NCBI GenBank assembly: GCA_030593075.1
Contig: JAUVHW010000002.1
Coordinates: 1-46,430, forward strand
Reading direction: 5' to 3'
Source of the DNA: Ardenticatenales bacterium
GTDB lineage: Bacteria; Chloroflexota; Anaerolineae; Promineifilales; UBA4811
Length of the DNA stretch: 46,430 nucleotides
Shown here: positions 28,303-40,998 of the stretch, one piece after another
Layout: each line of letters begins with the position of its first letter
Numbering within the stretch: position 1 is the stretch's first letter
Notes under the pieces: generated by a model
Database searches by the model: none
Told to the model about the DNA's origin: nothing
Seen by the model: only the letters and a program-made list of their open reading frames with translations
Made by a program: the position numbers and the translations under genes

Positions 28303-29049
28303 TTGGATCAGGAAGAGGTCCGTGAGATGGTGCGGCGCGTCGTGCACCGCACCCTGAATGTACCGTACAGCCCGTCTGCGCAGGCTGCCCGGCCTCTGGT
28401 CACAGAGGCCGATGTGCGGGCAGTGCCGGTGGGCAGCCAGCTCTCGGTCCCCAAGGGGGCACTGGTCACCCCGCTTGCCCGCCAGGTTGCCCTCGAGAGG
28501 AAGGTGTCGCTCAACCAGGAGACGCTGCCTCCGGCGCCCTCTGTCGCTGGTGAACCCTGCTCTGAGCGCCGCCCGGACAGCGGCCGGACCGTCGCTCTAG
28601 GCTCAGATCATGGAGGATACCAGCTCAAGGCGGTGCTGGCGGGCTACTTGGAAGAGCTGGGCTATCCAGTAATAGACTGCGGTACTGACAGCACTGCCTC
28701 GGTAGACTATCCGGATTTTGCCCTTGCCGTGGCGAGGCTGGTGGCTCGGGCGCAGGCCTGGCGCGGCATCGTTGTTGACGGCGCAGGGATTGGCTCCTGC
28801 ATGGCTGCCAACAAGGTGCCTGGAGTGCGCGCCGCCATGTGCTACGACCAGGCGACGGCCGTCAACAGCCGCGAGCACAATGATGCCAACGTGCTGACCC
28901 TGGGTGCTGGCCTGATCGGAGCCAACCTGGCCCGGCAGATTGTTAGAACCTGGCTAGAGACGCCGGCCGGGGGCGAGCGGCACGCGCGGCGCGTGGGCAA
29001 GATCATGGACATCGAGCGCCGTTTCCTCAGAGATGTTTCCAGGGGATAA
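28303..29049 (+). CDS. rpiB: Ribose-5-phosphate isomerase B family enzyme with a ~95-aa N-terminal extension (EP-like helix plus conserved module)
   Basis: Core motifs LGSDHGGYQLK, GAGIGSCMAANKVPGVRAA and REHNDANVLTLGA. Start placed at the TTG at 28303 because the predicted promoter lies inside the longer track ORF (28165) and an RBS precedes 28303. The ATG at 28327 is an alternative. Confidence 0.85.
   Translation: MDQEEVREMVRRVVHRTLNVPYSPSAQAARPLVTEADVRAVPVGSQLSVPKGALVTPLARQVALERKVSLNQETLPPAPSVAGEPCSERRPDSGRTVALGSDHGGYQLKAVLAGYLEELGYPVIDCGTDSTASVDYPDFALAVARLVARAQAWRGIVVDGAGIGSCMAANKVPGVRAAMCYDQATAVNSREHNDANVLTLGAGLIGANLARQIVRTWLETPAGGERHARRVGKIMDIERRFLRDVSRG
28396..28512 (+). other. Conserved N-terminal module (copy 1) shared with the class II aldolase
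   Basis: LVTEADVRAVPVGSQLSVPKGALVTPLARQVALERKVSL. 30 of 39 residues are identical to aldolase residues 11-49. Confidence 0.9.
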
Positions 29050-29052
29050 AGC

Positions 29053-29916
29053 GTGAAGAAACTGGACGAGGCGAGGGTCGAGCGCATCATCGAAGAGGTC
29101 ACAAGGCAGGTGCTGCTCGTGATGGAAGAGACCGAGGCAGGCGCAGACCCGGCCGCTGCAGAGCCTATTTCAGCCCACAACTATGTGGACCGAGTCAAGC
29201 CGGTTGTCAACGCCGGCGCGGACCGCCTGGCCAGCACGCTGGGCATCATGCCCACCGACGGCAGCGTGCGTCACATGATCGATCACACCCTGCTCAAGCC
29301 AGATGCGACGCCCGATCAGGTCGCCCAGCTGTGCTTCGAGGCGCGCAAGCACGGTTTTGCCGCCGTGTGTGTCAACCCGGCTCACGTCGAGCTTTGCAGC
29401 CAGCTCCTCAAAGGCAGTGATGTGCTGGTCTGCACTGTTGTGGGCTTTCCTCTGGGCGCCACCTCTACTGAGGCCAAGGTCTTTGAGGCTCAAAAGGCAA
29501 TTCAGGACGGCGCTGCCGAAGTGGACATGGTGGTCAACGTGGGAGCGCTCAAATCCCGCGACATTGGGCTGGTGGAGCGCGACATCGCCTCCCTGGCCCG
29601 GACTTGCCACGCCGGTAACGCTGTTCTCAAGGTGATCATTGAGGCGGCGCTGCTCACCGACGAGGAAAAAGTCATCGCCTGCCAGCTAGCCAAGGTGGCG
29701 GGTGCCAATTATGTCAAGACTTCTACCGGTTTTGGCCCTGGTGGCGCTACTCCTGAAGATGTTGCGCTCATGCGGCGCGTGGTCGGACCCAGCATGGGAG
29801 TCAAGGCAGCTGGCGGCATTCGGACCTACGAGGACGCAACTAGGATGATCGCAGCGGGCGCCACCAGGATAGGCGCCAGCGCCAGTGTGAGAATCATGCA
29901 GGGGGCGCCGGGCTAG
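29053..29916 (+). CDS. deoC: Deoxyribose-phosphate aldolase with a ~70-aa N-terminal extension (EP-like helix)
   Basis: [27 protein letters not shown] and YVKTSTGF (Schiff-base Lys region). N-terminus [27 protein letters not shown] start 4 nt after the rpiB stop. Confidence 0.9.
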
Positions 29917-29953
29917 GAGCAGCCGGAACCTCCATTGCCTCAGGAGAGCGCGA

Positions 29954-30592
29954 ATGTCAGTGGACCTGCGTACTTATGTCTTTCTCGACAGTCTGCAGCC
30001 GCAACACGCCGGCTTTCTCGGCACAGTGGCGCGCGGCTTCCTGCCGCTGCCAAATGACACCTCGCTATGGGTGGAGATCTCTCCCGGAATCGAGATCAAC
30101 CGCATCACCGACATTGCCCTCAAGGCGACCCGTGTTCGCCCCGGGATGCAGATTGTGGAGCGGCTGTTTGGCCTGCTGGAGGTGCACCATGAGGAGCAGG
30201 CCGAGGTGCGGGCGGCTGGTGCGGCGATCCTGGAGGCCCTGGGCGTCGAAGAGTCGGACCGCATCAAGCCCCGGGTGGTCTCCAGCCAGGTCATCCGCCA
30301 CGTAGACGCCCATCAGGTGCAGCTGATCAACCGCATGCGGCACGGGCACATGTTGCTGGCAGGACAGACTCTGTATGTTCTGGAGGTCGAACCGGCCGGA
30401 TATGCAGCGCTGGCAGCCAATGAGGCGGAAAAGGCTGCTCGTATCAACATCCTGGAGGTTCGCGCCTTTGGCAGCTTTGGGCGCGTCTACCTGGGCGGTG
30501 AAGAGAGGGATATCATGGCTGGCTATGGCGCGGCCGTGGCTGCCATCGAAGCTGTGAGCGGGCGCATGGTAGAGACCCGGCGCCGCGACTAG
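29954..30592 (+). CDS. BMC-T shell protein, CcmP/CsoS1D-like tandem (permuted) BMC domains
   Basis: [26 protein letters not shown]...[20 protein letters not shown] and [36 protein letters not shown] closely follow the CcmP sequence as I recall it. 212 aa, i.e. two BMC folds. Confidence 0.8.
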
Positions 30593-30637
30593 TCTTACTG
30601 GAGAACGAGTGCAAACCCCACTTGTCAGGAGGATACC

Positions 30638-30931
30638 ATGACCGATGCACTTGGAATGATCGAGACCAAGAGCTTCCCGGCTATGGTCGAGGCTGCCGAC
30701 GCTATGGTCAAGGCAGCCAAGGTCGAGTTGGTGAGCTACGAAAAGACGGGCGGAGGCCAGGTGACCGCAGTCGTGCGCGGTGACGTGGCGGCCGTCAAGG
30801 CGGCCGTAGAGGCAGGCGCACGCGGAGCCGAGAGGGTTGGAGAGGTAGTTGCCATCCACGTCATCCCGCGGCCGCACGCCAACGTGGACGTGACTCTTCC
30901 GCTGGGCCGCACACCGGCCGAAGGCAAGTAG
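30638..30931 (+). CDS. BMC-H hexameric shell protein (PduA/EutM/CcmK-like)
   Basis: [57 protein letters not shown] is the canonical PF00936 BMC-domain sequence. 97 aa. Confidence 0.95.
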
Positions 30932-30983
30932 CCGCCCTCCAGGCGCAAGGGCAGGACCCGACTGCGCGCCGGGGGCGGGAGCG

Positions 30984-31006
30984 ATGCGTGGGTCCTTCCC
31001 ACGCAT
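30984..31006 (+). other. Intra-operon stem-loop directly after the BMC-H gene
   Basis: Perfect 9-bp stem ATGCGTGGG/CCCACGCAT with loop TCCTT, followed by TTTGCCGTTACTT (short, interrupted U tract). Confidence 0.6.
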
Positions 31007-31039
31007 TTGCCGTTACTTGCACCTTGAACGGAGTTCTCT

Positions 31040-31339
31040 ATGCTGCTAGGAAGAGTAGTGGGTACGCTGGTCGCCACCCGCAAAGAGCCGTCGCTGGGGG
31101 GGCTCAAGTTCCTGGTGCTCAAGCAACTCGACATTGAGGGGCAGGAGACAGGCGGCTATCGGGTGGCGGCCGACGCCGTGGGAGCTGGCCTTGGAGAGGT
31201 GGTGCTCTATGCCACCGGCAGCGCCGCGCGCCAGACCAAGCTGACGGACCGCCGACCCTGCGACGCCGTGATCATGGCCATCGTGGACACCGTGGAGGTG
31301 GACGGCGTGGTCAAGTACGAGAAGGCTGAGGCCGATTGA
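31040..31339 (+). CDS. BMC-P pentameric vertex protein (EutN/CcmL family), paralog 1
   Basis: [15 protein letters not shown]...[10 protein letters not shown]...[22 protein letters not shown] is the typical PF03319 pattern. 99 aa. Confidence 0.9.
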
Positions 31340-32811
31340 TGATGGACGATGCCCGCATCGAAGCCATCATCCAGGAGGTGATGGATGAGCTGAACCTGGG
31401 CGACCGGCCGCGGCATGGTCCGTCGCCCCAGCCACTGCGCCCCGCCACGCTCGCTGAGCTTGCGCCTGCCCCCCAGCTGCACCACGGCGACAATCTGTTT
31501 CCGGATGTCGAAAGCGCGGTTGCGGCCGCCCGCCGCGCCTACCTGCAGCTGGCGGACCTTCCGCTGACGTTGCGCGAGCGCATGATCGCCCAGATCCGCC
31601 GCGTGATGCGGGAGAACGCGCAGCTCCTGGCGCACGAAGCCTGGCGCGAGACGGGGATGGGCCGCTACGAGGACAAGATCCAGAAGAACTTGCTCAACGC
31701 CAACAAGGCGCCCGGCACCGAGATCCTGGACCCGACCGCCTGGAGTGGGGACGACGGCCTGACTCTGGTCGAGTACGCACCCTATGGCGTGATTGGGTCG
31801 ATTATCCCCAGCACCAATCCCACCTCCACCGTCATCTGCAATGTCATTTCCATGGTCGCGGCCGGCAACGCCGTGGTATTCAATGCCCACCCAGGCGCGC
31901 GCGGCTGCTCCAACCACACCGTGCAGCTGGTGAACGAGGCCATCGTCCAGGTAGGCGGCCCGCCCAACCTGGTCTGCGCACTGGCCGAACCGACCATAGA
32001 GACCGCCCAGCAGATCATGCGCCACCCCGATGTGGGGTTGCTGGCGGTCACAGGCGGGGCAGCTGTGGTGCAGGCGGCGATGCAGAGCGGTAAACGCGCG
32101 GTCTGCGCCGGCCCGGGCAATCCTCCGGCCGTGGTGGATGAGACGGCCGATCTGCAGCAGGCAGGGCGAGACATCGTGCTGGGTGCCTCCTTTGACAACA
32201 ACGTCATTTGCATCGACGAAAAAGAGATCTTTGCGGTGGACAGCATTGCCGACGATCTGAAGCGGTCCATGTGCAGCAACGGAGCCCTCGAGATCAGCTC
32301 CCGGCAGCTCGATCGCCTCTCCCAGTCGATCTTTGACCAGGTTCCGCCGGCCGGGCAGCATGGCGCCATGAACAAGGCCTTCATAGGCAAGAATGCGAGC
32401 CTACTGCTCCAGGAGATCGGCATTGAGGTCGGGGAGGAGGTACGGCTGATATTGGTGGAAGTAGAGCCGGATCACCCGCTGGTACTGTCGGAGCAGATGA
32501 TGCCCATTGTGCCGCTGGTCCGCGTTCGCGATGCTGACCAGGCCATCGATCTGGCAAAGAAGGCAGAGCATGGTTTTCGGCACACGGCCGTGATGCACTC
32601 CAAGCACCTGGACCATCTGAGCCGCATGGCGCGCGAGATGGATTGCAGCATTTTTGTCAAGAACGCTCCTTCCTATGCTGGCGTTGGATATCGCGGCGAG
32701 GGTTTTTGCTCCTTTACGATTGCCAGCGCCACCGGCGAAGGGCTGACCAACCCTATCAGCTTCAGCCGCATCCGCCGCTGCACTCTTAAGGACTCCTTCA
32801 GGATCGTCTGA
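31339..32811 (+). CDS. CoA-acylating aldehyde dehydrogenase (PduP/EutE-like) with an N-terminal EP-like helix
   Basis: CAGPGNPPAVVDETAD and FDNNVICIDEKE (catalytic Cys context) are typical of BMC-associated acylating AldDH. N-terminus [21 protein letters not shown]. The start overlaps the stop of the preceding gene. ATG at 31339 or 31342. Confidence 0.9.
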   Translation: MMDDARIEAIIQEVMDELNLGDRPRHGPSPQPLRPATLAELAPAPQLHHGDNLFPDVESAVAAARRAYLQLADLPLTLRERMIAQIRRVMRENAQLLAHEAWRETGMGRYEDKIQKNLLNANKAPGTEILDPTAWSGDDGLTLVEYAPYGVIGSIIPSTNPTSTVICNVISMVAAGNAVVFNAHPGARGCSNHTVQLVNEAIVQVGGPPNLVCALAEPTIETAQQIMRHPDVGLLAVTGGAAVVQAAMQSGKRAVCAGPGNPPAVVDETADLQQAGRDIVLGASFDNNVICIDEKEIFAVDSIADDLKRSMCSNGALEISSRQLDRLSQSIFDQVPPAGQHGAMNKAFIGKNASLLLQEIGIEVGEEVRLILVEVEPDHPLVLSEQMMPIVPLVRVRDADQAIDLAKKAEHGFRHTAVMHSKHLDHLSRMAREMDCSIFVKNAPSYAGVGYRGEGFCSFTIASATGEGLTNPISFSRIRRCTLKDSFRIV

Positions 32812-32868
32812 GGGCCCGCGGACGGGTCTGACTCCAGGTTCTGGCACCTGAGCGGGATGTTATGAGAG

Positions 32869-33459
32869 ATGGTTGAGCCAGCGCTGGTACTGGTAGAGCT
32901 GAACAGTATCGCGGCCGGCATCGAGACGGCCGACGCCATGGTCAAGCGCGCGCCGATTGACCTGATCAAGGCTGGCACGGTGCAGCCGGGCAAGTACCTG
33001 GTACTGATTGGGGGGCTAGTGGCTGACGTCGAAGAGTCGCTGGCTGCCGGCCGCCAAGTCGGTGGCCCGGCTGTGGTAGACACCGTCTATCTGCCCCAGG
33101 TGCACCCCGAGGTGGTCGAGGCCGTCGCGGGGGGGCGGGTACCGCAGGCGACCGACGCCGTGGGAGTGATAGAGACGACCACCGTCGCGGCCGCCATCCA
33201 CGCGGCCGACGCAGGTGTCAAGGGGGCCGAGGTACGACTGCTGGAGGTACGGCTGGCGGACGGGCTGGGCGGCAAGGGCATTGTGCTCTTCTCCGGCCTG
33301 GTGGCCGATGTGGAGGCCGCGGTTCGGATCGGTGTCGGGGCGCTGGAGCGGCCAGAGCTCCTGGTGAGGCAGGTGGTCATCCCCCAGCTGCACCCCGAGA
33401 TGTGGGAGAACGTCGCTGACGCCACCCGCTTCCGCAGCCGGGTGATGGGCAACCTATGA
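32869..33459 (+). CDS. BMC-T shell protein, PduT-like tandem BMC domains, cysteine-free
   Basis: LVLVELNSIAAGIETADAMVKRAP...VQPGKYLVLIGG and VGVIETTTVAAAIHAADAGVKGAEV...GKGIVLFSG...IPQLHPEMW parallel PduT. The translation contains no Cys. Confidence 0.85.
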   Translation: MVEPALVLVELNSIAAGIETADAMVKRAPIDLIKAGTVQPGKYLVLIGGLVADVEESLAAGRQVGGPAVVDTVYLPQVHPEVVEAVAGGRVPQATDAVGVIETTTVAAAIHAADAGVKGAEVRLLEVRLADGLGGKGIVLFSGLVADVEAAVRIGVGALERPELLVRQVVIPQLHPEMWENVADATRFRSRVMGNL

Positions 33460-34025
33460 AGCCGATCCTGCTCGACTTCCCCGATTCCTTCGAGACCGAG
33501 CGGCTCACCATCCGTTCGCCCTTGCCGGGCGACGGCACCGAACTGCAGGCGGCCGTGGCCGAGACGCTGGATGACCTGGCCCCCTGGATGCCCTGGGCTG
33601 ACCACCTACCCAGTGTCGACGAGGAGGAAGAGGCGGTGCGCAGGGCGCGCGCTCGCTTCCTGACCCGCGAGGACCTCTGGCTCCTGCTCCTCCTCAAGGA
33701 TAGTAGCACCATCGTTGGGGGGAGCGGACTGCACCGCATAGACTGGGAGGTTCGCCGGTTTGAGATCGGCTTCTGGGCGCGGAGGCGCGTTGCCGGCCAG
33801 GGTTACATCTCGGAGGCCGTCCGCGGCATCACTCGGTTTGCCTTTGAGACGCTCGGTGCCCGTCGGGTCGAGATTCGCTGCGACGAGCGCAACGGGCGGA
33901 GCCGCCGGGTGGCGGAGAGGGCGGGCTTTTCGCTGGAGGCGACTCTTCGCAACCACGCCTTGGCGGCCGACGGCGAGCTGCGCAACACGCTGATCTACGT
34001 CCGGCTGGAATCAGCAGAAGCCTGA
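33456..34025 (+). CDS. GNAT N-acetyltransferase (RimJ/RimL-like, Acetyltransf_3 type)
   Basis: ETERLTIRSP...WLLLLK...IGFWARRRVAGQGYISEAVRGITRFAFETLGARRVEIRCDERNGRSRRVAERAGF follows the RimJ/L pattern. ATGA overlap with the upstream shell gene and TGATG overlap with the downstream one. Confidence 0.8.
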   Translation: MKPILLDFPDSFETERLTIRSPLPGDGTELQAAVAETLDDLAPWMPWADHLPSVDEEEEAVRRARARFLTREDLWLLLLLKDSSTIVGGSGLHRIDWEVRRFEIGFWARRRVAGQGYISEAVRGITRFAFETLGARRVEIRCDERNGRSRRVAERAGFSLEATLRNHALAADGELRNTLIYVRLESAEA

Positions 34026-34351
34026 TGAAGTTCGCGCGCGTTCTAGGCACGGTGGTCGCCACCCGCAAGTACGAAGGGCTTGAGGGGATCAAGTTCCTGG
34101 TGGTGCAGCCCCTCGATAGGGACCTGCATCCGCACGGGGAACCTGTGGTCGCGGCCGACGCCACCGCCCAGGCCGGGCCCGGCGAGTTGGTCTTCATGGT
34201 AGCTAGCCGTGAAGGCGCGCAGGCGCTGCCCGAGGTATTCGTGCCGGTTGACCTGGCGATCACCGGGATTGTGGACGAGGTCGAAGTAGAGCGCGGTGAG
34301 CGCCGGCAGCAGCCCACGGCCGTGTGGCATCCCGTGTCTGAGGGCGACTGA
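34025..34351 (+). CDS. BMC-P vertex protein (EutN/CcmL family), paralog 2
   Basis: MKFARVLGTVVATRKYEGLEGIKFLVVQPLD...AADATAQAGPGELVFMVASREG. 108 aa. Confidence 0.85.
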   Translation: MKFARVLGTVVATRKYEGLEGIKFLVVQPLDRDLHPHGEPVVAADATAQAGPGELVFMVASREGAQALPEVFVPVDLAITGIVDEVEVERGERRQQPTAVWHPVSEGD

Positions 34352-34353
34352 CG

Positions 34354-34626
34354 GTGTACATCGGCAAGGTCATCGGCACGGTCGTCGCCACTATCAAGAT
34401 ATCCCACCTGGACCGTCGCAAGCTGCTCCTGGTGGACCAACTGGACCTGCAGGGGCAGGAGACCGGCTACTATGACATTGCGGTCGACGTGGTGCAGGCC
34501 GGACCCGGCGACACCGTGCTGGTGATCGATGAGGGGAACGGGGCACGCCAAATCCTGGGGCTGGACCCCGGCGCAGTGCGGGCAGTCGTCGTCGGGGTGG
34601 TGGACGAGGTGGCTTTGGGCAGCTAG
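34354..34626 (+). CDS. BMC-P vertex protein (EutN/CcmL family), paralog 3
   Basis: GTG start. MYIGKVIGTVVATIK...LLLVDQLD...AVDVVQAGPGDTVLVIDEGNGARQ. 90 aa. Confidence 0.85.
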   Translation: MYIGKVIGTVVATIKISHLDRRKLLLVDQLDLQGQETGYYDIAVDVVQAGPGDTVLVIDEGNGARQILGLDPGAVRAVVVGVVDEVALGS

Positions 34627-35080
34627 CCCCGAGCAGGCTGCACGTTCCCGCCAGGGGCGGCACGCGCCAGTGCCACGCCGATCCATTTGTACAGAGGCCT
34701 GGCCGGAGAGAAAGCCTGCCGGGTCCTAGCGGGGAGCCGACGCACTGCCAGCCACCCAGATGCGCCTGTGGTGGGCCGGCCAGGCCTTCAAGAAGCCTAC
34801 TCTCGCAGATCTGTGGGTAGCGGTCATGGGAGTTCATCGTGTCAGACCAGTCCTCGGCCGGGCTTCTGGGCTGACGCCTTCCTGGGTGGCAGGTTGGGCT
34901 AGATCCCGAGGTAGCGAGCTGGGAACGCGCACCACGAACTCCCCGCTGTAATCGTCAACCAGGCAGCTGATCATGCTCATCTGTGTCCTGGTCTGCAAAG
35001 CCCTTCCGCGACTGGCCCAGTGAATATGCGCCTGGCGGACCAACCGCGGGGTGCAAGCCGGCAGCGACAGTCACCAAGTC

Positions 35081-35872
35081 TCAGCGCGTGTCTGCCGCCC
35101 GCTGCACCAACTCCAGAAACCCCGGCGTCAGGCTGGCGCCGCCCACCAGCGCGCCGTCTATCTCTGGCATCGCCATGAAAGAGGCAATGTTCTCGGCCGT
35201 TACGCTGCCGCCGTAGAGCACTCGCACTGCCTGGGCCGTCGCCTCCCCGAATGATTCTGCAATAGCCCCTCGTATCGTGAGGCCGATCACGCGGTTTGCC
35301 CCGGCCGGCGTCGATGCCCTGCCCGTGCCGATGGCCCAGATAGGCTCGTAGGCGATCGCGCACTTGCCTACATCCTCGGCCGTCAGGCCCTCCAGCGCGG
35401 CTCTCACTTGGCCTCCGATGAACTGGTGTGTCTCGCCTGCTTGATTCTGCTCCAGGTTCTCGCCCACGCACACGATGGGTGTCAGGTTGTGAGCCAGTGC
35501 GGCATGAACCTTGCGGCTGACCGCGCTGTCGCCTTCCAGGCCCCGAACTGGCTCCGGGGAGGCCACCCGGCCGCTCCGGCGCTCCGAGTGACCCAGGATG
35601 ACGTACTGGCACACACCTGTCAACATGGCGGGCGAGACCTCGCCGGTGTATGCGCCGCAGTCCTCCCAGTGCATCGTCTGTGCGCCCAGGCCGATGCGCG
35701 TGGGCCGCAACACCTCCGCCACCACTGCCAGCACGGTGAAAGGGGGGCACACCACCCGCTCCACTCCCTCGATCTGGCTCAGCGGGTACCGGATGCGACG
35801 CACCAGCGCCAGTGCTTCCTCGACCCGGCCCAGGTTCATCTTCCAGTTGCCGACGATGATGGGTGTTCGCAT
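35081..35872 (-). CDS. tpiA: Triose-phosphate isomerase
   Basis: The ATG at 35872 gives MRTPIIVGNWKMN. GHSERR, AYEPIWAIGTG (catalytic Glu) and YGGSV are present. There is a short insertion after GHSERR. The track ORF start at 35950 adds 26 non-conserved residues. Confidence 0.9.
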   Translation of the reverse strand: MRTPIIVGNWKMNLGRVEEALALVRRIRYPLSQIEGVERVVCPPFTVLAVVAEVLRPTRIGLGAQTMHWEDCGAYTGEVSPAMLTGVCQYVILGHSERRSGRVASPEPVRGLEGDSAVSRKVHAALAHNLTPIVCVGENLEQNQAGETHQFIGGQVRAALEGLTAEDVGKCAIAYEPIWAIGTGRASTPAGANRVIGLTIRGAIAESFGEATAQAVRVLYGGSVTAENIASFMAMPEIDGALVGGASLTPGFLELVQRAADTR

Positions 35873-35996
35873 TCTGTCTGCCAGCGGAACGGCCGTCCGA
35901 CTCCAGCCTGCGGCGGCAGCGTTCCTCTCCAGGCGAGGATTATACGCCATTGCCGGGCCCTGACCAGGAGCGCTTCAGGTGCTGGCGCCAGTTGGG

Positions 35997-36025
35997 TTGC
36001 TCCAAGTTGGGGCGGCTGCTATAAT
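35997..36025 (+). promoter_or_regulatory. Promoter of the class II aldolase gene
   Basis: TTGCTC (35997-36002), a 17-nt spacer, then TATAAT (36020-36025). It sits about 55 nt upstream of the GTG at 36081. Confidence 0.55.
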
Positions 36026-36080
36026 CGCGCTGCCGAGCATGAGCCAGCGTTCAGATCAGATAATGGACCGGAGACTATAG

Positions 36081-36908
36081 GTGACCAGGCAGCAGTCCAG
36101 GAGCCGGCAGCTGGTAACAGAGCAGGACGTGCGCGCCGTTCCGCCCGGAGGGCAGTTCGCTGTCCCCCGCGGGGCGCTGGTAACGCCCCTGGCTCGGCAG
36201 GTGGCTATGGAGCGCGGGGTGACCCTGAGGGAGCCAGGAGCGGCGCCGGCCCTTGAGGAGGACGGGCTGCGCGGCGAAATCGTGCGCGTCGGCCGACTCC
36301 TGCACCAGAAGGGGTTCGTCGCTGCCACCGCGGGGAACATCTCTGCCCGCCTGGGCCCTGACAGAATCCTGGCCACCCCCAGCGGCCGGCACAAGGGGTT
36401 CCTGCGCGCTGACGAGCTGATCGTCGTTGACCTGGAGGGACAGCCCGTGGGTCCACGGCCGAGGCTCGGGCCGACCTCCGAGATGCCCATGCATCTGGAG
36501 GTCTACCGCCAGCGGCCGGAGGTCGGCGCAGTAGTCCATGCCCACCCTCCAATTGCGGTGGCGCTCAGCACGGCCGGGATCTCTCTGGCCGAGCCTATGC
36601 AGCCCGAAACCGTCATCACCCTTGGCGAGATCCCTACCACAGAGTACGCGACGCCCTCGACACACGAGAACGTTGAGGTGATTCGGGATCTGATTGGGCG
36701 GCACGACGCCATCGTGTTGCGCCGGCATGGCGCTCTCACGGTTGGGGCTGACCCTTTTGACGCCTACGCGAAAATGGAGATCCTGGAGCACACCGCGCAC
36801 GTTGCGATGCTGATGCGTCTGGTCGATGGGGCTGAACCGCTCTCCCCCGAGCAGGTGGAGAAGCTGCTGGCGCTGCGGGAGCGGTTTGGCGGGCAGCCTC
36901 TGGGATGA
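36081..36908 (+). CDS. Class II (zinc) aldolase/epimerase family protein (FucA/RhaD/AraD-like) with a ~50-aa N-terminal extension
   Basis: ATAGNISARL, SEMPMHLEVY, VVHAHPP and LRRHGALTVG are class II aldolase/adducin-domain motifs. GTG start preceded by GGAGAC. The N-terminal module matches RpiB. Confidence 0.85.
   Translation: MTRQQSRSRQLVTEQDVRAVPPGGQFAVPRGALVTPLARQVAMERGVTLREPGAAPALEEDGLRGEIVRVGRLLHQKGFVAATAGNISARLGPDRILATPSGRHKGFLRADELIVVDLEGQPVGPRPRLGPTSEMPMHLEVYRQRPEVGAVVHAHPPIAVALSTAGISLAEPMQPETVITLGEIPTTEYATPSTHENVEVIRDLIGRHDAIVLRRHGALTVGADPFDAYAKMEILEHTAHVAMLMRLVDGAEPLSPEQVEKLLALRERFGGQPLG
36111..36227 (+). other. Conserved N-terminal module (copy 2) shared with the RpiB-like enzyme
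   Basis: LVTEQDVRAVPPGGQFAVPRGALVTPLARQVAMERGVTL. 30 of 39 residues are identical to copy 1, and 17 of the 30 identical residues use different codons. Confidence 0.9.
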
Positions 36909-37248
36909 GCGCGACCATGGAGGCAGAGAAAACAGGGCGGGCAGGCGGCCGGGAAGCAGCGCTTCGACCTGAGCCTCCGTGCCCCTGCCATCAAGAGTTC
37001 CCACATCGCATCACGCCTTCCAGCAGATCTCTATTCCTCTCTCTGCCTGCTGCTCAGTCGACTGGCGCTCCCAGTGACTTGTGGTACTCTCTGTTCACCT
37101 GTGGGGCGAGTTCGTCGCTGTTCTTTCGGGTTGACGAGTCGGCTCTCTGTCGTCGCGTACCGCACGGAACCAGCTCTTGCACAGCCAGGCTGATGCCGCC
37201 TGCGCTGGTGCAGCCGGCTGTTTCTGTGCTTGCAGCAGAGTGACTGCA

Positions 37249-40200
37249 ATGTCTGGATCGGAACCCGTCCGCATTCTATACATGGAGGACGATGCCGCCC
37301 TTGCTCGTCTCACGCAGAGGAAGCTCGGGCAGTTCGGCTATAGCGTGGACCTGGCTTGCGACGGCGAGGAGGGCCTTGCCATGTACGCTGCGGGCGCCTA
37401 CGATCTGGTGGCGGTGGACCACCAGATGCCTGGGCACAGCGGACTGGAAGTAATCCGGACCCTCGCCGCTCAGGGTCAGCTGCCACCCACGATCATGATT
37501 ACCGGTGCTGGCAGCGAAGAGACGGCCGTGGAGGCCATGAGGCTGGGTGTGGGCGACTATGTAATCAAGGACGTGGAGGGTGGATACCTTGACCTGCTGC
37601 CCACGGTGATTGAGCGGGTGCTGGAGCAGCGGAAGCTCGCGGAGGAGAAGCGGCGGGCCGAGGAGGCGCTGCAGAAAGCCCACGCTGAGCTCAAAAGGCG
37701 AACGAAGGAACACACCGCCGAGCTGACCGTCCTGCTGGAAGCAGCTAGAGCGATCTCGTCCACCACCAGTCTCAAGAACCTGCTCACCCTCATTGCCCAG
37801 CAGATGGTGAGAGCCGTTGGCGCCTCTGGCTGCACTATTTCCCGGCTGGACCAAGGACCCGACGAGGTCGTAACTTGGATCGAATGGCGAGAGGCTTCGG
37901 GACCTCCCGACGAGCCGGGCACTGCCTACGCCCTGGATGACTTCCCAGCCACGCGGTCCGTGCTGGAACGTCGTGAGCCTCTCAGTATCTTGGTCTCCGA
38001 TCCTGATGCTGATCCGGCCGAAGTCGAGTTGATGCGTCAGGTGGGCTCGGCAAGCCTGCTCATGTTGCCCTTGGCGGCTGGTGATCAGGTCATCGGCGTC
38101 GTCGAGATAGATGAGTCGAAGCGCGAGCGGCGGTTCACAGCCGCCGAGATTCACCTGTGCCAGGCTCTGGCGGACCAGGCTGCGGTGGCCATCCAGAAGG
38201 CCTGGCTGTACGAACAAGCTCAGCAGGAAATCGCCGAGCGGGTGCGAGGGGAGCAGGCTTTGCGGGAGAGCGAGGAACGCTTCCGGGCGGTGTTTGAGAC
38301 GGCTGAAGACTCTATCTTTATCAAGGACCGCTCACTACGGTACACACACGTCAATCCGGCCATGGAGAGGCTATTCGGGGTCTCGGCTTCGGAACTGATC
38401 GGCCGGACGGATGTGGATCTCTTTGGGCAGGAGGCCGGGGAACACATCAGCGAGGTAGATTCCCGTGTCCTAGGTGGCGAGATCGTCAAGGAAGAGGATA
38501 CCAAACCCGTGAAGGGGATTCCACATACCTTTCACGTCGTCAAGGTGCCCATGCGGGACAGCTCTGGCGAGATAGCAGGGCTCTGCGGGATTGCCCGCGA
38601 GATCACCGAGCGGGTGCAGATTGAGGAGGCGCTGAGAGAGGCCCGTGATGAGTTGGAAATGCGGGTCGAGGAACGAACGGCCGAGCTCGCCATGGCCAAC
38701 GAGCAGCTGCGCCTGGGGCTCGCCGAGCTGGAGCGAGCGCAAGAGCGGCTCCAGGGCCGCGAGCGCTTCCTCAGACTACTCAACGATATCACCCGCGCTG
38801 CCCTGGAGACGCCCGATCTGCAGGCCATGCTCCAGATCCTGGCAGACCAGCTCGGTGGGCTGTTCGATGCCGACGGCTGCGTCATCTGCCTGTGCGACCA
38901 GGCGCGGCAGACGACCATTGGAGCCGCGGCCGGCGGCGACACCATGGACCTTTGCTCCGGCCTCCAGTCCAGCGCTGACGAGCCGACCATGGTCGAGCGG
39001 GTGCTGCGCCATGGAAGGCCGCTCGTGGCTGGAGATCTGTTGGATCACCCAGAGGTGAGCCCAAGCATCCCTGAAGCGCTGGCGGCCCGCTCTGTGCTCG
39101 GCCTGCCGCTGGTTGCCGGGGCACAGGAACTGGGAGCAGCTTTTGTCCTCTTCAATGACCCGCACGAGTTCGCCCCGGAGGAAGTTGAGCGCGGCGAGCA
39201 TGTGGCGGGCCAGGTTGCCCTGGCTATCGCCAAGGCCTCCCTGCTAGAGACGGAACGAGAACAGCGCAAGTTGGCTGAGACCTTGCGGGAGGTCGGCAGT
39301 GCACTGAGCAGCACCCTCGACCGCGAGCAGGTACTGCGTCTCATTCTGGAGCAGCTGGGCCAGGTGGTCGCCTATGATAGCGCCTCCGTAATGCTTGTTT
39401 CCGGTGCTGAGCTAGAGACCGTCGCCAGGCGCAGTCTTGATCCGCAGGCCCTGCCGGGAGCCGCTTCCCCTGAGGTAGCAGCCCTGCCGCATGTCCAGAG
39501 GACTCTCCAGAGGAACCTGCCCGTCGTAATCCCGGACACCGCGCGCGACCCGGACTGGCTGCAGCTGCCCGGTACCGAGCAGATACGCTGCTGGCTGGGA
39601 GTACCGCTGGTGGCACGGGATCAGGCAGTCGGCCTGCTCAACCTGAACAAGAAGGAGGCGCACTCCTATTCTGAGCGGGATGCCCAGGTCGCTGCGATCT
39701 TTGCGGCACAGGCGGCTATGGCCATCGAAAACGCCCAGCTCTTTGCAGAGACGCAGAGCCGCTTCCAGGAAATGACGGCTCTGTACGGCATCTCACTCGA
39801 TATCACTGGTCGTCTGGAGATGTCAGGACTGCTCCAATCGATTGTGCAGCGGGGCAGCGAGCTGCTGAACGCTGACTCTGGCGGTGTCTACCTGTACGAT
39901 GAAGAGAGAGATGAGCTGAGACTGGCCGTTGGTCACGGTGACGCCGCGCGCCACGTGGGGGGAACCCTCAGGCCGGGCGAGGGCATAGCCGGCCGGGTGC
40001 TCCAGACAGGAGAGCCCATTGTTGCTGATGACTACCGGGAATGGGACGCCAAGCCCGCGTGGTTGCAGGATAGCGATCTGTCCAGGGCAGTGCTTGAGGT
40101 GCCGCTCAGGTGGGAGGAGCGCGTCGTAGGCGTGCTCTTTATCGACGCCGACTGCCGGGAGCGAACGTTTGGTCCCGAGGATGTCCGCGTGGCCAAGCTC

Positions 40201-40998
40201 CTGGCCAGCCAGGCGGCCGTCGCCCTTGAAAACGCGCGACTATACAAGGAGCTGCAGCAGCGGATGGATGAGCTGAGTCAAACGCAGGTCCAGCTCATCC
40301 AATCCACGAGAATGGCGACCGTCGGCGAACTGGCGACCGGGCTAGCCCACGAGATCAACAACCCGTTGACTGGTATAGTGGGGATGGCCCAGATCTTGGG
40401 CCGGGAAGCGAGCACACCGGAGCATAAAGAGGGTCTGGAGAGTATTGTGGAACAGGCCCTCCGCGCGGCCGATGTCGTGCGCGGGCTGCAGGTCTTTGTC
40501 GACGAGCCAGGCGTTCGCACGCGGGCCGACGTCAACCAGCTGCTGCGCGACACTGTTCGCCTGGTCCGTGAGCGTGCGCTGCGAAGCGGCGTTCAGATTG
40601 TCGAACACCTGGCCCCTGACCCGCTGTGGCTGGTCGCGAGCCCCCTCCAGGTGCGGCAGCTGTTCCTGGGCTTGATAACGAGAGCGCTGCTCGTCATGCC
40701 TGACGGCGGCGAACTGGTTCTGTCCACAAGAATCAAGGATGTCGAGGGCCAGAGCACGATCGAGATCCGCATAACAGACTCCGGCCCCCCCACTCCTCCT
40801 GACGAGGTGGCCTCCCTATTCGAGATCGTCTTTGACGCCGGTGCTCCCCGGCCGGGCCTCAGACTGGGGTTGGCAGCCAGCCGTACGATTGCCCAGGACC
40901 ACGGCGGCGACATCGCAGTAGAGTGCAGGCCTGGACAGGGTACCACTTTCGCGGTACAACTCCCACGCGCAGCGCGCGGAACGCGCGAAACGTGCTGA
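37249..40998 (+). CDS. Hybrid sensor histidine kinase: N-terminal REC, coiled coil, GAF, PAS, multiple GAF, HisKA, HATPase_c
   Basis: REC: ILYMEDD...LVAVDHQMPGHSGLEV...IMITG. PAS: ESEERFRAVFETAEDSIFIKD. Several GAF-like blocks end in ALENARLY-type helices. H-box LAHEINNPLTGI. ATPase G-boxes DSGPP and GLRLGL. Start at the ATG at 37249 (MSGSEPVRILY). Confidence 0.85.
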   Translation: MSGSEPVRILYMEDDAALARLTQRKLGQFGYSVDLACDGEEGLAMYAAGAYDLVAVDHQMPGHSGLEVIRTLAAQGQLPPTIMITGAGSEETAVEAMRLGVGDYVIKDVEGGYLDLLPTVIERVLEQRKLAEEKRRAEEALQKAHAELKRRTKEHTAELTVLLEAARAISSTTSLKNLLTLIAQQMVRAVGASGCTISRLDQGPDEVVTWIEWREASGPPDEPGTAYALDDFPATRSVLERREPLSILVSDPDADPAEVELMRQVGSASLLMLPLAAGDQVIGVVEIDESKRERRFTAAEIHLCQALADQAAVAIQKAWLYEQAQQEIAERVRGEQALRESEERFRAVFETAEDSIFIKDRSLRYTHVNPAMERLFGVSASELIGRTDVDLFGQEAGEHISEVDSRVLGGEIVKEEDTKPVKGIPHTFHVVKVPMRDSSGEIAGLCGIAREITERVQIEEALREARDELEMRVEERTAELAMANEQLRLGLAELERAQERLQGRERFLRLLNDITRAALETPDLQAMLQILADQLGGLFDADGCVICLCDQARQTTIGAAAGGDTMDLCSGLQSSADEPTMVERVLRHGRPLVAGDLLDHPEVSPSIPEALAARSVLGLPLVAGAQELGAAFVLFNDPHEFAPEEVERGEHVAGQVALAIAKASLLETEREQRKLAETLREVGSALSSTLDREQVLRLILEQLGQVVAYDSASVMLVSGAELETVARRSLDPQALPGAASPEVAALPHVQRTLQRNLPVVIPDTARDPDWLQLPGTEQIRCWLGVPLVARDQAVGLLNLNKKEAHSYSERDAQVAAIFAAQAAMAIENAQLFAETQSRFQEMTALYGISLDITGRLEMSGLLQSIVQRGSELLNADSGGVYLYDEERDELRLAVGHGDAARHVGGTLRPGEGIAGRVLQTGEPIVADDYREWDAKPAWLQDSDLSRAVLEVPLRWEERVVGVLFIDADCRERTFGPEDVRVAKLLASQAAVALENARLYKELQQRMDELSQTQVQLIQSTRMATVGELATGLAHEINNPLTGIVGMAQILGREASTPEHKEGLESIVEQALRAADVVRGLQVFVDEPGVRTRADVNQLLRDTVRLVRERALRSGVQIVEHLAPDPLWLVASPLQVRQLFLGLITRALLVMPDGGELVLSTRIKDVEGQSTIEIRITDSGPPTPPDEVASLFEIVFDAGAPRPGLRLGLAASRTIAQDHGGDIAVECRPGQGTTFAVQLPRAARGTRETC

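What the first reader, a model, noticed from the sequence alone, without database searches (positions are those of the whole stretch)
28396..28512. A ~39-aa N-terminal module is shared by two unrelated enzymes of the locus (RpiB-like and class II aldolase)
RpiB-like residues LVTEADVRAVPVGSQLSVPKGALVTPLARQVALERKVSL and aldolase residues LVTEQDVRAVPPGGQFAVPRGALVTPLARQVAMERGVTL (36111-36227) are identical at 30 of 39 positions. Both sit N-terminal to the catalytic domain and are followed by a Pro/Ala-rich linker. At the DNA level, 17 of the 30 identical residues use different codons. The similarity is therefore maintained by selection on the peptide and is not a recent DNA duplication. The module is longer than a classical encapsulation peptide and unlike one. 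It could be a shell-docking, scaffold or enzyme-pairing domain that co-localises the two sugar-phosphate enzymes. I vaguely recall similar short N-terminal segments on some Eut/Pdu accessory proteins but cannot verify this.
Basis: seen in the sequence. Interest (0 to 1): 0.7.

Follow-up and report, generated by a model that had tools for sequence, protein, structure and literature searches.

The report
Shared microcompartment shell-docking mini-domain
Two unrelated sugar-phosphate enzymes in a bacterial microcompartment gene cluster carry the same small folded ~40-residue domain, which is related to the part of EutQ shown by experiment to bind the compartment shell, so it most likely docks these enzymes to the shell.

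Summary
Window 28396-28512 (RpiB-like gene) and 36111-36227 (class II aldolase gene) encode 39-residue segments that are 30/39 identical (BLASTP E 3e-16). Synonymous sites are saturated: third-position identity is 15/39, and the longest exact DNA run is 6 nt.

The locus is a sugar-phosphate-utilisation (SPU) microcompartment operon. The segment is not a linker. AlphaFold2 predicts a compact strand-helix-strand-strand-helix-strand mini-domain (pLDDT 96), and it is nearly as conserved as the catalytic domain.

All 120 closest RpiB relatives carry it, in 1 to 3 tandem copies. Only a small aldolase clade does; the other close aldolase relatives examined have a classical C-terminal encapsulation peptide instead.

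A profile built only from these modules finds the same domain in several other proteins:
- the N-terminus of EutQ and of EutT
- the C-terminus of PduM
- TIGR02536 proteins (through their family model)
- some PduL proteins, at the C-terminus

Wherever the context could be read, these lie in microcompartment loci. Published work shows that EutQ residues 9-41, which cover this region, mediate shell binding.

The best explanation is therefore a portable shell-docking domain. In RpiB it is paired with a core-binding encapsulation peptide. I found no paper that treats it as a shared domain. Its function in this locus is inferred, not tested.

The parts
28303..29049 (+). RpiB-like ribose-5-phosphate isomerase gene. 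The likely true start is TTG 28303. Layout: encapsulation-peptide helix, linker, module, disordered linker, RpiB domain.
   Evidence: PF02502 matches residues 143-280 of the long ORF. Homologues start with MxDExxIRQMVRRVVYRTLG. The AlphaFold2 full-length model shows the layout.
28306..28359 (+). Classical amphipathic encapsulation-peptide helix of RpiB (DQEEVREMVRRVVHRTLN).
   Evidence: Predicted helix at residues 3-18. Column conservation is 0.86. It resembles the C-terminal encapsulation peptides of related aldolases. PMC11585597 describes an N-terminal encapsulation peptide on SPU ribose-5-phosphate isomerases.
28396..28512 (+). Module copy 1 (RpiB residues 32-70): LVTEADVRAVPVGSQLSVPKGALVTPLARQVALERKVSL.
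   Evidence: AlphaFold2 gives pLDDT 96 for the module alone, and the same fold appears in the full-length model. Conservation is 0.83, against 0.52-0.68 for the flanking linkers.
28513..28587 (+). Pro/Ala-rich disordered linker between the module and the RpiB catalytic domain.
   Evidence: pLDDT is below 50 for residues 74-93. Conservation is 0.52.
36081..36908 (+). Class II aldolase gene with the module at its N-terminus and no C-terminal encapsulation peptide.
   Evidence: PF00596 matches residues 66-242. Of the 120 closest relatives, only the first seven carry the module; the module-less relatives read in full (P0135, P0141, P0189, P0235) have C-terminal encapsulation peptides.
36111..36227 (+). 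Module copy 2 (aldolase residues 11-49): LVTEQDVRAVPPGGQFAVPRGALVTPLARQVAMERGVTL.
29053..29916 (+). Deoxyribose-5-phosphate aldolase (DERA), the SPU signature enzyme, with an N-terminal encapsulation-peptide-like helix ([21 protein letters not shown]).
   Evidence: PF01791. PMC11585597 reports that all SPU DERAs carry such an N-terminal helix.
29954..30592 (+). CsoS1D-like tandem-domain shell protein (BMC-T, double-stacking type). It is a candidate docking partner.
   Evidence: Weak PF00936 hit. The syntenic orthologue in L082 is marked PF27545 CsoS1D_N. Present in most related loci.
30638..30931 (+). BMC-H hexamer shell protein. It is a candidate docking partner, by analogy with EutM.
   Evidence: PF00936, E 1.2e-30.
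31040..31339 (+). BMC-P pentamer (vertex) shell protein.
   Evidence: PF03319.
31336..32811 (+). Acylating aldehyde dehydrogenase with an N-terminal encapsulation-peptide-like helix (DDARIEAIIQEVMDELN).
   Evidence: PF00171. PMC11585597 reports N-terminal encapsulation peptides on aldehyde dehydrogenases of SPU types other than SPU6.
32869..33459 (+). BMC-T tandem-domain shell protein. It is a candidate docking partner, by analogy with EutL.
   Evidence: Two PF00936 domains.
34025..34626 (+). Two further BMC-P genes (34025-34351 and 34354-34626).
   Evidence: ORFs. They match BMC_P2 and BMC_P3 in related loci, and the orthologues in L082 are PF03319.
35081..35950 (-). Triosephosphate isomerase, transcribed divergently from the aldolase. 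The same arrangement occurs in L082.
   Evidence: PF00121. Synteny.

Best explanation
The 39-residue module is an autonomously folding mini-domain (strand-helix-strand-strand-helix-strand) that belongs to a microcompartment-specific domain family. Other members of that family are the N-terminus of EutQ and EutT, the C-terminus of PduM, TIGR02536 proteins and some PduL enzymes.

Its most likely job is to dock the protein that carries it onto the lumenal side of the microcompartment shell. By analogy with EutQ, the docking site would be a surface formed by the BMC-H hexamer and a BMC-T trimer. A flexible Pro/Ala-rich linker then tethers the catalytic domain.

In RpiB the module follows a classical encapsulation-peptide helix, which binds the cargo core. 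RpiB would therefore act both as an enzyme and as a core-to-shell bridge, built like PduM (encapsulation peptide plus module). Variants with three tandem cassettes would bind multivalently.

In the aldolase the module has taken the place of the C-terminal encapsulation peptide found on the related aldolases examined. It would be that enzyme's only targeting device.

Shown here: the homology, the predicted fold, the conservation, the restriction to microcompartment loci, and the exchange of encapsulation peptide for module.

Inferred: shell binding in this system, the identity of the partner, and the lumenal location.
For: Observation and selection.

Predicted fold: the module alone gives pLDDT 96 and pTM 0.72. 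The full-length RpiB model has the same secondary structure, flanked by low-confidence linkers.

Conservation: 0.83 for the module against 0.52-0.68 for the linkers.

Distribution:
- All 120 nearest RpiB relatives carry 1 to 3 copies, but only 7 of 120 aldolase relatives do.
- The module-less aldolase relatives read in full carry C-terminal encapsulation peptides.
- In a scan of species-representative genomes, 78 of 80 carrier loci have it on RpiB (75 intact genes, 3 split by a frameshift). Of the 80 loci, 72 show shell genes.

Homology beyond SPU: a profile built only from RpiB and aldolase modules gave 286 hits at E<=1e-3 among 1.84 billion proteins.
- Among the listed best 150 are a PduL with a C-terminal module (E 4e-7, in a EUT locus), EutQ-like cupin proteins with an N-terminal module, and proteins with an encapsulation peptide plus a C-terminal module that sit between the pduL-like and pduN-like genes.
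- 22 of 28 modules hit the C-terminal ~40 positions of Pfam PDU_like, 24 of 28 hit the TIGR02536 C-terminus, and 8 of 28 hit EutT.
- In E. coli eut and pdu operons the profile hits only EutT residues 5-45, EutQ residues 2-38 and PduM residues 121-161. These score 18-25 bits, against 2.9 bits or less for the other 935 control ORFs.

Experimental literature:
- Deleting EutQ residues 9-41 (helices H1/H2) leaves EutQ with the cargo and detached from the shell. EutQ 1-99 targets GFP to the compartment. EutQ binds EutM and EutL (PMC12487888).
- Removing the first 100 residues of EutQ abolishes pull-down with EutM (PMC4827028).
- Deleting pduM partly separates core from shell, and PduM residues 1-23 are a core-targeting signal (PMC12108088).
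- A Listeria EutL-TIGR02536 complex has been predicted (PMC13181095).
Against: - No binding experiment or complex prediction was possible for this SPU system, so the partner is unknown.
- The matches to EutQ, EutT and PduM are individually modest (17-26 bits). They fall below the whole-protein cut-offs of the curated models, so the homology rests on consistent position, reciprocity and a clean control rather than on one strong score.
- In EutQ, the published evidence for shell binding by residues 9-41 comes from in-vivo localisation of deletion mutants, not from a mapped interface.
- Dwyer et al. (PMC11585597) found a direct complex between the SPU isomerase and DERA, so a cargo-cargo role cannot be excluded.
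- One locus (L064) has a module-bearing RpiB and DERA with no shell genes in the 3 kb that follow.
- Foldseek found no solved structure that resembles the model.
Confidence: 0.6

Rival explanations
1. The module is a cargo-cargo pairing or scaffolding domain. It binds another core component (for example DERA or an encapsulation-peptide helix) or itself, so it co-assembles the sugar-phosphate enzymes inside the core rather than touching the shell.
For: Dwyer et al. showed that full-length SPU isomerase co-purifies with DERA lacking its own N-terminal extension (PMC11585597). Tandem 3x cassettes would also suit a scaffold role. In EutQ, a neighbouring segment (residues 62-99) does bind cargo encapsulation peptides.
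Against: The same domain occurs in EUT and PDU systems that have no DERA or RpiB. The component common to all these systems is the shell. In EutQ the homologous segment (residues 9-41) is the one needed for shell association, not cargo association. NMR peaks for EutQ residues 2-62 did not change when an encapsulation peptide was added.
Confidence: 0.2
2. The module is a structural or regulatory appendage of the enzymes themselves, affecting oligomerisation, activity or small-molecule sensing, with no targeting role.
For: It is well conserved and predicted to fold. One distant carrier fuses it to an ACT ligand-binding domain.
Against: It is attached through disordered linkers and does not pack onto the RpiB domain in the model. 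It sits on at least seven unrelated protein families, at either terminus and in 1 to 3 copies. It replaces an encapsulation peptide on the aldolase. Ordinary RpiB and aldolase family models lack it.
Confidence: 0.08
3. The similarity comes from a recent intragenomic duplication or gene conversion, or from chance, and has no functional meaning.
For: Two copies lie within 8 kb in one operon region.
Against: Third codon positions are at the random level (15/39 against 0.32 expected), and the longest exact DNA run is 6 nt. The aldolase module is no closer to its own genome's RpiB module than to many others (rank 17 of 176). The same arrangement is conserved in another lineage (L082). BLASTP gives E 3e-16.
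Confidence: 0.02

Closest known systems
EutQ N-terminal H1/H2 region (Salmonella/E. coli EutQ residues about 2-45), the shell-binding part of the EutQ shell-cargo linker (Sci Adv 2025, PMC12487888)
   Same: Sequence homologue: the module profile hits E. coli EutQ residues 2-38. It has the same two-helix core in a segment of about 40 residues and is followed by a flexible linker. It sits in a microcompartment operon. The EutQ segment is required for association with the shell.
   Different: In EutQ it precedes an encapsulation-peptide-binding helical pair and a cupin acetate kinase. Here it is fused to RpiB (after the protein's own encapsulation peptide) and to an aldolase, in an SPU compartment. 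Some RpiBs have 2 or 3 tandem copies. The EutQ paper does not describe the region as a domain shared with other proteins.
PduM (Pfam PF15953 PDU_like; TIGR04493), structural protein of the Pdu microcompartment
   Same: PduM's C-terminal residues 121-161 are the same module (22 of 28 modules hit PF15953 positions about 116-152). PduM has an N-terminal encapsulation peptide (residues 1-23) that targets the core, and its loss partly uncouples core and shell (PMC12108088). That is the same encapsulation-peptide-plus-module logic as the RpiB N-terminus.
   Different: PduM has a body of about 95 residues between the encapsulation peptide and the module and has no enzyme domain. The window proteins do not reach the PF15953 cut-off, because they share only the last ~40 positions. 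The literature states that PduM has no known homology outside Pdu compartments.
Classical encapsulation peptides (amphipathic helices of about 18 residues on PduP, PduD, EutC, EutE and on SPU DERA and aldehyde dehydrogenase)
   Same: Both are terminal extensions on microcompartment cargo, separated from the enzyme by a poorly conserved linker. The module takes the place of a C-terminal encapsulation peptide in the aldolase family.
   Different: The module is twice as long, is predicted to be a compact alpha/beta fold rather than a single amphipathic helix, is strongly conserved in sequence (TPLARQ motif), and coexists with a true encapsulation peptide on RpiB.
Peripheral subunit-binding domain of 2-oxoacid dehydrogenase E2 (Pfam PF02817 E3_binding)
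   Same: It is a very small docking domain flanked by Ala/Pro-rich linkers in a multienzyme assembly. The module's second half (TPLARQVAxERxV) resembles the first helix of that domain, and 10 of 28 modules give weak hits (best E 0.009).
   Different: The hits cover only about 19 of 36 model positions and are below the cut-off. The module's first half has no counterpart. I treat this as an analogy or a local motif resemblance, not as membership.
Repeat-based shell-cargo linkers of carboxysomes (CsoS2, CcmN, CcmM)
   Same: They bridge cargo and shell. Multivalent repeats resemble the three-cassette RpiB variants.
   Different: There is no sequence relationship. CsoS2 is intrinsically disordered, whereas this module is predicted to fold.

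Membership tests
EutQ-N / EutT-N / PduM-C module family (unnamed; partly embedded in Pfam PF15953 and in NCBIfam TIGR02536, PRK15428, PRK15020, PRK15457) | Sequence homology over the ~40-residue segment, detectable by profile in both directions | tested here: met
   The profile of window-type modules hits E. coli EutT residues 5-45 (25.7 bits), EutQ residues 2-38 (20.1 bits) and PduM residues 121-161 (22.5 bits). The next best of 938 control ORFs scores 2.9 bits. In the other direction, 22 of 28 modules hit the PF15953 C-terminus, 24 of 28 hit the TIGR02536 C-terminus, 19 of 28 hit PduM PRK15428 and 8 of 28 hit EutT. All of these are below whole-protein cut-offs, because only the last or first ~40 positions are shared.
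EutQ-N / EutT-N / PduM-C module family | Two-helix core (H1/H2 of EutQ) within a compact unit of about 40 residues | tested here: met
   The AlphaFold2 models have helices at module positions 7-11 and 29-37 plus short strands, at pLDDT 96 and again in the full-length context. This is a prediction only. No solved structure exists.
EutQ-N / EutT-N / PduM-C module family | Occurrence restricted to microcompartment loci | tested here: met
   72 of 80 genome loci show shell genes. Of the other 8, 7 are truncated by contig ends and 1 (L064) is unresolved. Distant carriers P0326, P0289 and P0347 lie beside BMC or EutN genes.
EutQ-N / EutT-N / PduM-C module family | Binds the shell (the EutM/EutL-type surface) | not testable with these tools
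   Known only for EutQ, from deletion-mutant localisation, MST and pull-downs (PMC12487888, PMC4827028). Multimer prediction and experiments were not available here.
Classical encapsulation peptide | A single amphipathic alpha-helix of about 15-20 residues joined by a poorly conserved linker | tested here: not met
   The module is 39-45 residues and is predicted as strand-helix-strand-strand-helix-strand with high sequence conservation. The separate segment 28306-28359 of RpiB does meet this definition.
Peripheral subunit-binding domain (PF02817 E3_binding) | A match to the full ~36-residue model above the gathering score of 23.7 bits | tested here: not met
   The best hits are 15.5-16.9 bits and cover model positions 2-20 only. 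10 of 28 members hit, with best E 0.0087.
RpiB/LacAB sugar-phosphate isomerase (PF02502) | The catalytic domain matches the family model, and the module is part of that model | tested here: not met
   The catalytic domain matches fully (E 7e-52, residues 143-280, model positions 1-138 of 138). The module lies wholly outside it, and the NCBIfam RpiB models also start at residue 142. The protein is an RpiB; the module is an add-on.
Class II aldolase (PF00596) | The catalytic domain matches the family model, and the module is part of that model | tested here: not met
   The domain matches residues 66-242 (E 5.5e-50), and the module at residues 11-49 lies outside it. 113 of the 120 nearest relatives lack the module.
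SPU (sugar-phosphate utilisation) microcompartment locus | DERA (PF01791), RpiB (PF02502) and acylating aldehyde dehydrogenase together with BMC-H, BMC-T and BMC-P shell genes | tested here: met
   All are present in 28303-34626. The same gene order is seen in L082 and in most of L001-L080. The definition is taken from PMC8217296 and PMC11585597.

The most novel reading that the evidence does not exclude
The module defines an unrecognised, autonomously folding shell-docking domain present across microcompartment types. It is carried by EutQ, EutT, PduM, TIGR02536 proteins, some PduL enzymes, SPU RpiB and a clade of SPU aldolases. It would be a second general targeting system alongside encapsulation peptides. 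Proteins that combine an encapsulation peptide with the module (PduM, SPU RpiB, some PduL) would be the general core-to-shell bridges of metabolosomes. Being small and portable, the module could serve as a universal tag for attaching foreign cargo to shells.
Probability: 0.45. Interest if true: 0.75.

Novelty: new member of a known kind. Interest (0 to 1): 0.6.

Why it matters
How enzyme cores are attached to shells in catabolic microcompartments is still being worked out one system at a time: the PduB N-terminus, PduM, and EutQ in 2025.

This finding links those cases. The shell-binding part of EutQ, the unexplained C-terminus of PduM (described as having no homologues), the N-terminus of EutT, and the so-called unstructured linker of SPU isomerases appear to be one domain family.

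That gives three things:
- A concrete, testable hypothesis for encapsulation in SPU compartments, which are among the most widespread types but barely studied.
- An explanation for why an aldolase clade could lose its encapsulation peptide.
- A compact folded tag, with a clear invariant motif (TPLARQ) to mutate, as a candidate for engineering cargo loading.

Tried and rejected
- A search of the 5.8-billion-protein index with the 47-residue module alone found nothing because of the word-index requirement. Full-length queries were used instead.
- Sequence searches of the PDB with the single module and with the profile found no significant relative. Foldseek of the model against the PDB gave only insignificant partial matches, such as Cas1 N-terminal domains and eIF5B, so no fold assignment is made.
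- Pfam and NCBIfam have no dedicated model. The single-sequence hits were weak and became convincing only when all 28 members were scanned and reciprocal profile tests were run.
- The resemblance to the E3_binding domain was considered and rejected as membership, because it is partial and below the cut-off.
- Recent duplication or gene conversion was rejected on the codon analysis and on module identity ranks.
- Two top profile hits (P0306, P0323) are repetitive low-complexity proteins and were discarded as false positives.
- The aldolases in L032 and L040 turned out to be unrelated AraD-like enzymes without extensions.
- The supplementary tables of the SPU paper are not held in the library, so I could not check how its authors annotated the isomerase extension per subtype.
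- Literature searches for a prior description of the shared domain found none. The library lacks most subscription journals, so absence is not proof.
Full report
**1. Observation**

Translating window 28396-28512 and 36111-36227 gives LVTEADVRAVPVGSQLSVPKGALVTPLARQVALERKVSL and LVTEQDVRAVPPGGQFAVPRGALVTPLARQVAMERGVTL. They share 30/39 residues and 79/117 nucleotides, and 17 of the 30 identical residues use different codons.

BLASTP of the two complete proteins aligns only this region (33/50 identical, E 3e-16). Identity by codon position is 29, 35 and 15 of 39. The third-position value is close to the 0.32 expected from the genes' base composition. The longest exact nucleotide run is 6, and the flanks are unrelated.

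The similarity is therefore real, old, and maintained at the protein level. A broadened profile finds no third copy in the window.

**2. Context**

The region from 28303 to 36908 is a sugar-phosphate-utilisation (SPU) microcompartment locus. In order it encodes:
- RpiB
- DeoC-type aldolase (DERA)
- a CsoS1D-like BMC-T
- BMC-H
- BMC-P
- acylating aldehyde dehydrogenase
- BMC-T
- a GNAT acetyltransferase
- two more BMC-P genes
- triosephosphate isomerase, on the minus strand
- the class II aldolase

An independent contig, L082, has the same order, including the divergent triosephosphate isomerase and a module-bearing aldolase. This matches the SPU definition of Sutter et al. (PMC8217296) and Dwyer et al. 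(PMC11585597).

The RpiB gene most likely starts at TTG 28303, which gives MDQEEVREMVRRVVHRTL. This amphipathic helix is conserved in homologues. RpiB therefore has a classical encapsulation peptide upstream of the module. DERA and the aldehyde dehydrogenase also begin with helices that look like encapsulation peptides.

**3. What the module is**

Family models for RpiB and for class II aldolase cover only the catalytic domains and leave the module outside.

AlphaFold2 was run on an alignment of 28 diverse modules. It predicts a compact unit with pLDDT 96 and pTM 0.72: a strand at positions 4-5, a helix at 7-11, strands at 18-21 and 26-27, a helix at 29-37 and a strand at 41-44.

In a full-length RpiB model built from 72 sequences, the same pattern appears at residues 32-72. 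It sits between an encapsulation-peptide helix (residues 3-18) and a linker with pLDDT below 50 (residues 74-93), ahead of the RpiB fold.

Column conservation across the 72 sequences is as follows:

| Region | Conservation |
|---|---|
| Encapsulation-peptide helix | 0.86 |
| First linker | 0.68 |
| Module | 0.83 |
| Second linker | 0.52 |
| RpiB catalytic domain | 0.92 |

Invariant or nearly invariant positions are E7, G16, the T28-P29-L30-A31-R32-Q33 stretch, A35 and R38.

[quoted passage not shown] For the proteins studied here, that description overlooks a folded, conserved domain.

**4. Distribution**

All 120 nearest RpiB relatives carry the module. About 25 have three copies and two have two copies. 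The repeated unit is the whole cassette: a degenerate encapsulation-peptide-like segment plus the module.

Among the 120 nearest aldolase relatives, only the first seven carry it. Four of the module-less relatives read in full (P0135, P0141, P0189, P0235) instead end in a classical C-terminal encapsulation peptide, for example ...EEELVRLVTREVLKELGKLSA. In this aldolase clade the module has therefore replaced an encapsulation peptide. That is indirect evidence that the two do related jobs.

A scan of one genome per species recovered 80 loci, from Chloroflexota, Gemmatimonadota, Holophagae and a Verrucomicrobiota genome:
- 78 have the module on RpiB (75 intact genes and 3 split by a frameshift), and 1 (L029) has it on the aldolase.
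- 72 loci show shell genes.
- 7 of the other 8 are cut off by a contig end.
- 1 (L064) has RpiB and DERA, both with encapsulation peptides, followed by unrelated genes. It may be a satellite locus.

Aldolase modules do not form their own clade. They are as close to RpiB modules as to each other. The window's aldolase module is not specially close to the window's own RpiB module (rank 17 of 176).

**5. Relatives in other compartment types**

The profile built only from RpiB and aldolase modules was searched against 1.84 billion representative proteins. It gave 286 hits at E<=1e-3. Apart from RpiB fragments, the listed best 150 include:
- a PduL phosphotransacylase with an N-terminal encapsulation peptide and a C-terminal module (P0326, E 4e-7), encoded in a EUT-type locus
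- EutQ-type cupin proteins with the module at the N-terminus (P0346, P0350)
- proteins with an N-terminal encapsulation peptide, an unassigned body and a C-terminal module (P0289, P0347, P0381), which lie between the pduL-like and pduN-like genes, the position of pduM
- an ACT-domain fusion (P0338)
- a protein of 161 residues with two modules and no recognised catalytic domain (P0297)

Scanning all 28 modules against the curated libraries gave consistent partial hits:

| Family model | Modules hitting (of 28) | Best E |
|---|---|---|
| Pfam PDU_like, positions ~116-152 of 153 | 22 | 1.3e-5 |
| TIGR02536, C-terminus | 24 | 1.6e-4 |
| PduM PRK15428 | 19 | 1.9e-4 |
| EutT PRK15020 | 8 | 9.1e-4 |
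| EutQ PRK15457 | 2 | 0.031 |

I then fetched the E. coli K-12 eut operon and the E. coli LF82 pdu operon. Among the 16 Eut proteins the profile hits only EutT residues 5-45 (25.7 bits) and EutQ residues 2-38 (20.1 bits). Among the 19 Pdu proteins it hits only PduM residues 121-161 of 163 (22.5 bits).

As a control, I scanned 938 six-frame ORFs from those 75 kb. The same three are the only scores above 3 bits (24.8, 21.5 and 17.8, against a next-best of 2.9).

**6. What the literature says about those relatives**

- The first 100 residues of EutQ are needed for pull-down with the hexamer EutM (PMC4827028).
- The 2025 Salmonella study (PMC12487888) shows that EutQ 1-99 is sufficient to target GFP to the compartment.
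  - Deleting residues 9-41 (helices H1/H2, which is exactly the module) leaves EutQ with the cargo aggregate and separated from shells.
  - Deleting residues 62-99 leaves it with shells, and residues 63-99 bind the encapsulation peptides of EutC and EutE.
  - EutQ interacts with EutM and EutL by MST.
  - The authors propose that H1/H2 bind at the EutM/EutL interface. They do not describe H1/H2 as a domain shared with other proteins. They note that Gram-positive EutQ proteins lack these helices.
- Gram-positive eut loci do encode TIGR02536 proteins, which carry the module at the C-terminus. A large-scale complex-prediction study reports a Listeria EutL-TIGR02536 complex (PMC13181095).
[quoted passage not shown] Its first 23 residues are a core-targeting signal, its loss partly uncouples core and shell, and its body interacts with the compartment 'by an unknown mechanism' (PMC12108088).

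**7. Mechanism proposed**

The component common to all systems that carry the module is the shell, and the only experimentally dissected copy (in EutQ) is the shell-association element. I therefore propose that the module docks its carrier to the inner shell surface, with the catalytic domain tethered by a flexible linker.

Proteins that also carry an encapsulation peptide (SPU RpiB, PduM, the PduL variant) would bridge the encapsulation-peptide-driven cargo core to the shell. The aldolase, which has the module alone, would be shell-docked directly. Tandem cassettes would add avidity.

The homology, predicted fold, conservation, locus restriction and exchange of encapsulation peptide for module are shown. 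The binding partner, the face of the shell and the effect on encapsulation are inferred. I put confidence at about 0.6.

The main rival is a cargo-cargo pairing role, at about 0.2. It is motivated by the isomerase-DERA complex reported for an SPU system. Against it stand the module's presence in systems without those enzymes and the EutQ deletion phenotypes.

**8. Comparison and novelty**

The closest known entity is the EutQ H1/H2 region, and the closest architecture is PduM. The module is not a classical encapsulation peptide: that definition was tested and not met. It is not a member of the E3_binding family either, since the hits are partial and below the cut-off, although the analogy of a tiny docking domain on Pro/Ala linkers is apt.

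I found no paper that recognises this segment as a shared domain. The SPU and PduM papers describe it as a linker and as lacking homologues, respectively. Because one member has a published function, I rate it as a new member of a known kind. The unifying domain-family reading is the novel case.

Noticed in passing
window 28303-28395: The RpiB gene probably starts at TTG 28303, with GGAGAGAG upstream. The database protein for this contig (P0001) starts at an internal ATG (MVRRVV...) and so loses half of the encapsulation-peptide helix. This is the start-site problem that Dwyer et al. noted for microcompartment cargo.
   Followed up: partly
L038, L041, L047, L049, L052, L057-L059, L065, L067, L077; proteins P0004-P0008 and others: About a fifth of the closest RpiB relatives have three tandem cassettes of roughly 79 residues. 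Each cassette is a degenerate encapsulation-peptide-like segment plus a module, which suggests multivalent binding. Two proteins (P0002, P0003) have two cassettes.
   Followed up: partly
protein P0245: This class II aldolase has an entire encapsulation-peptide-plus-module cassette, very like an RpiB N-terminus, inserted into an internal surface loop and splitting the Pfam Aldolase_II match in two. It could be a real loop insertion or an assembly chimera.
   Followed up: no
window 33456-34025: A GNAT acetyltransferase gene is wedged between the BMC-T and BMC-P genes, with overlapping stop and start codons. It was not found in any of the 80 related loci, nor in the syntenic locus L082.
   Followed up: partly
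window 35081-35950 (minus strand): The longest triosephosphate isomerase ORF has about 28 extra N-terminal residues with no obvious amphipathic helix. The real start may be the internal MRTPIIVGNWKMN. If so, the enzyme has no targeting element of its own and might be co-encapsulated through the adjacent aldolase.
   Followed up: no
L081 18503-19306 (E. coli K-12 eutT): The EutT adenosyltransferase begins with a clear copy of the module (residues 5-45, the strongest E. coli hit at 25.7 bits). I did not find this discussed in the papers read. It may explain how EutT associates with the Eut compartment.
   Followed up: partly
proteins P0338 and P0297: The module also occurs fused to an ACT domain (P0338) and as two tandem copies in a 161-residue protein without a recognised catalytic domain (P0297). 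The contig for P0338 is too short to show whether it lies in a microcompartment locus, and P0297 was not looked up.
   Followed up: partly
L064 4254-5884: In an Aggregatilineales genome, RpiB (encapsulation peptide plus module) and DERA (encapsulation peptide) are followed by an unrelated gene, with no shell genes in the next 3 kb. It may be a satellite locus serving a shell encoded elsewhere.
   Followed up: partly
window 37177-40998: Immediately downstream of the aldolase lies a 1273-residue ORF. From the translated sequence alone it looks like a hybrid sensor with a receiver domain, repeated sensory regions and a histidine kinase. It could regulate the locus. It was not analysed with any tool.
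   Followed up: no
module positions 26-44 (window 28462-28518 and 36177-36233): The second half of the module (TPLARQVAxERxVxL) resembles the first helix of the peripheral subunit-binding domain of 2-oxoacid dehydrogenase E2 (weak PF02817 hits in 10 of 28 modules). This may be a convergent docking-helix motif.
   Followed up: partly
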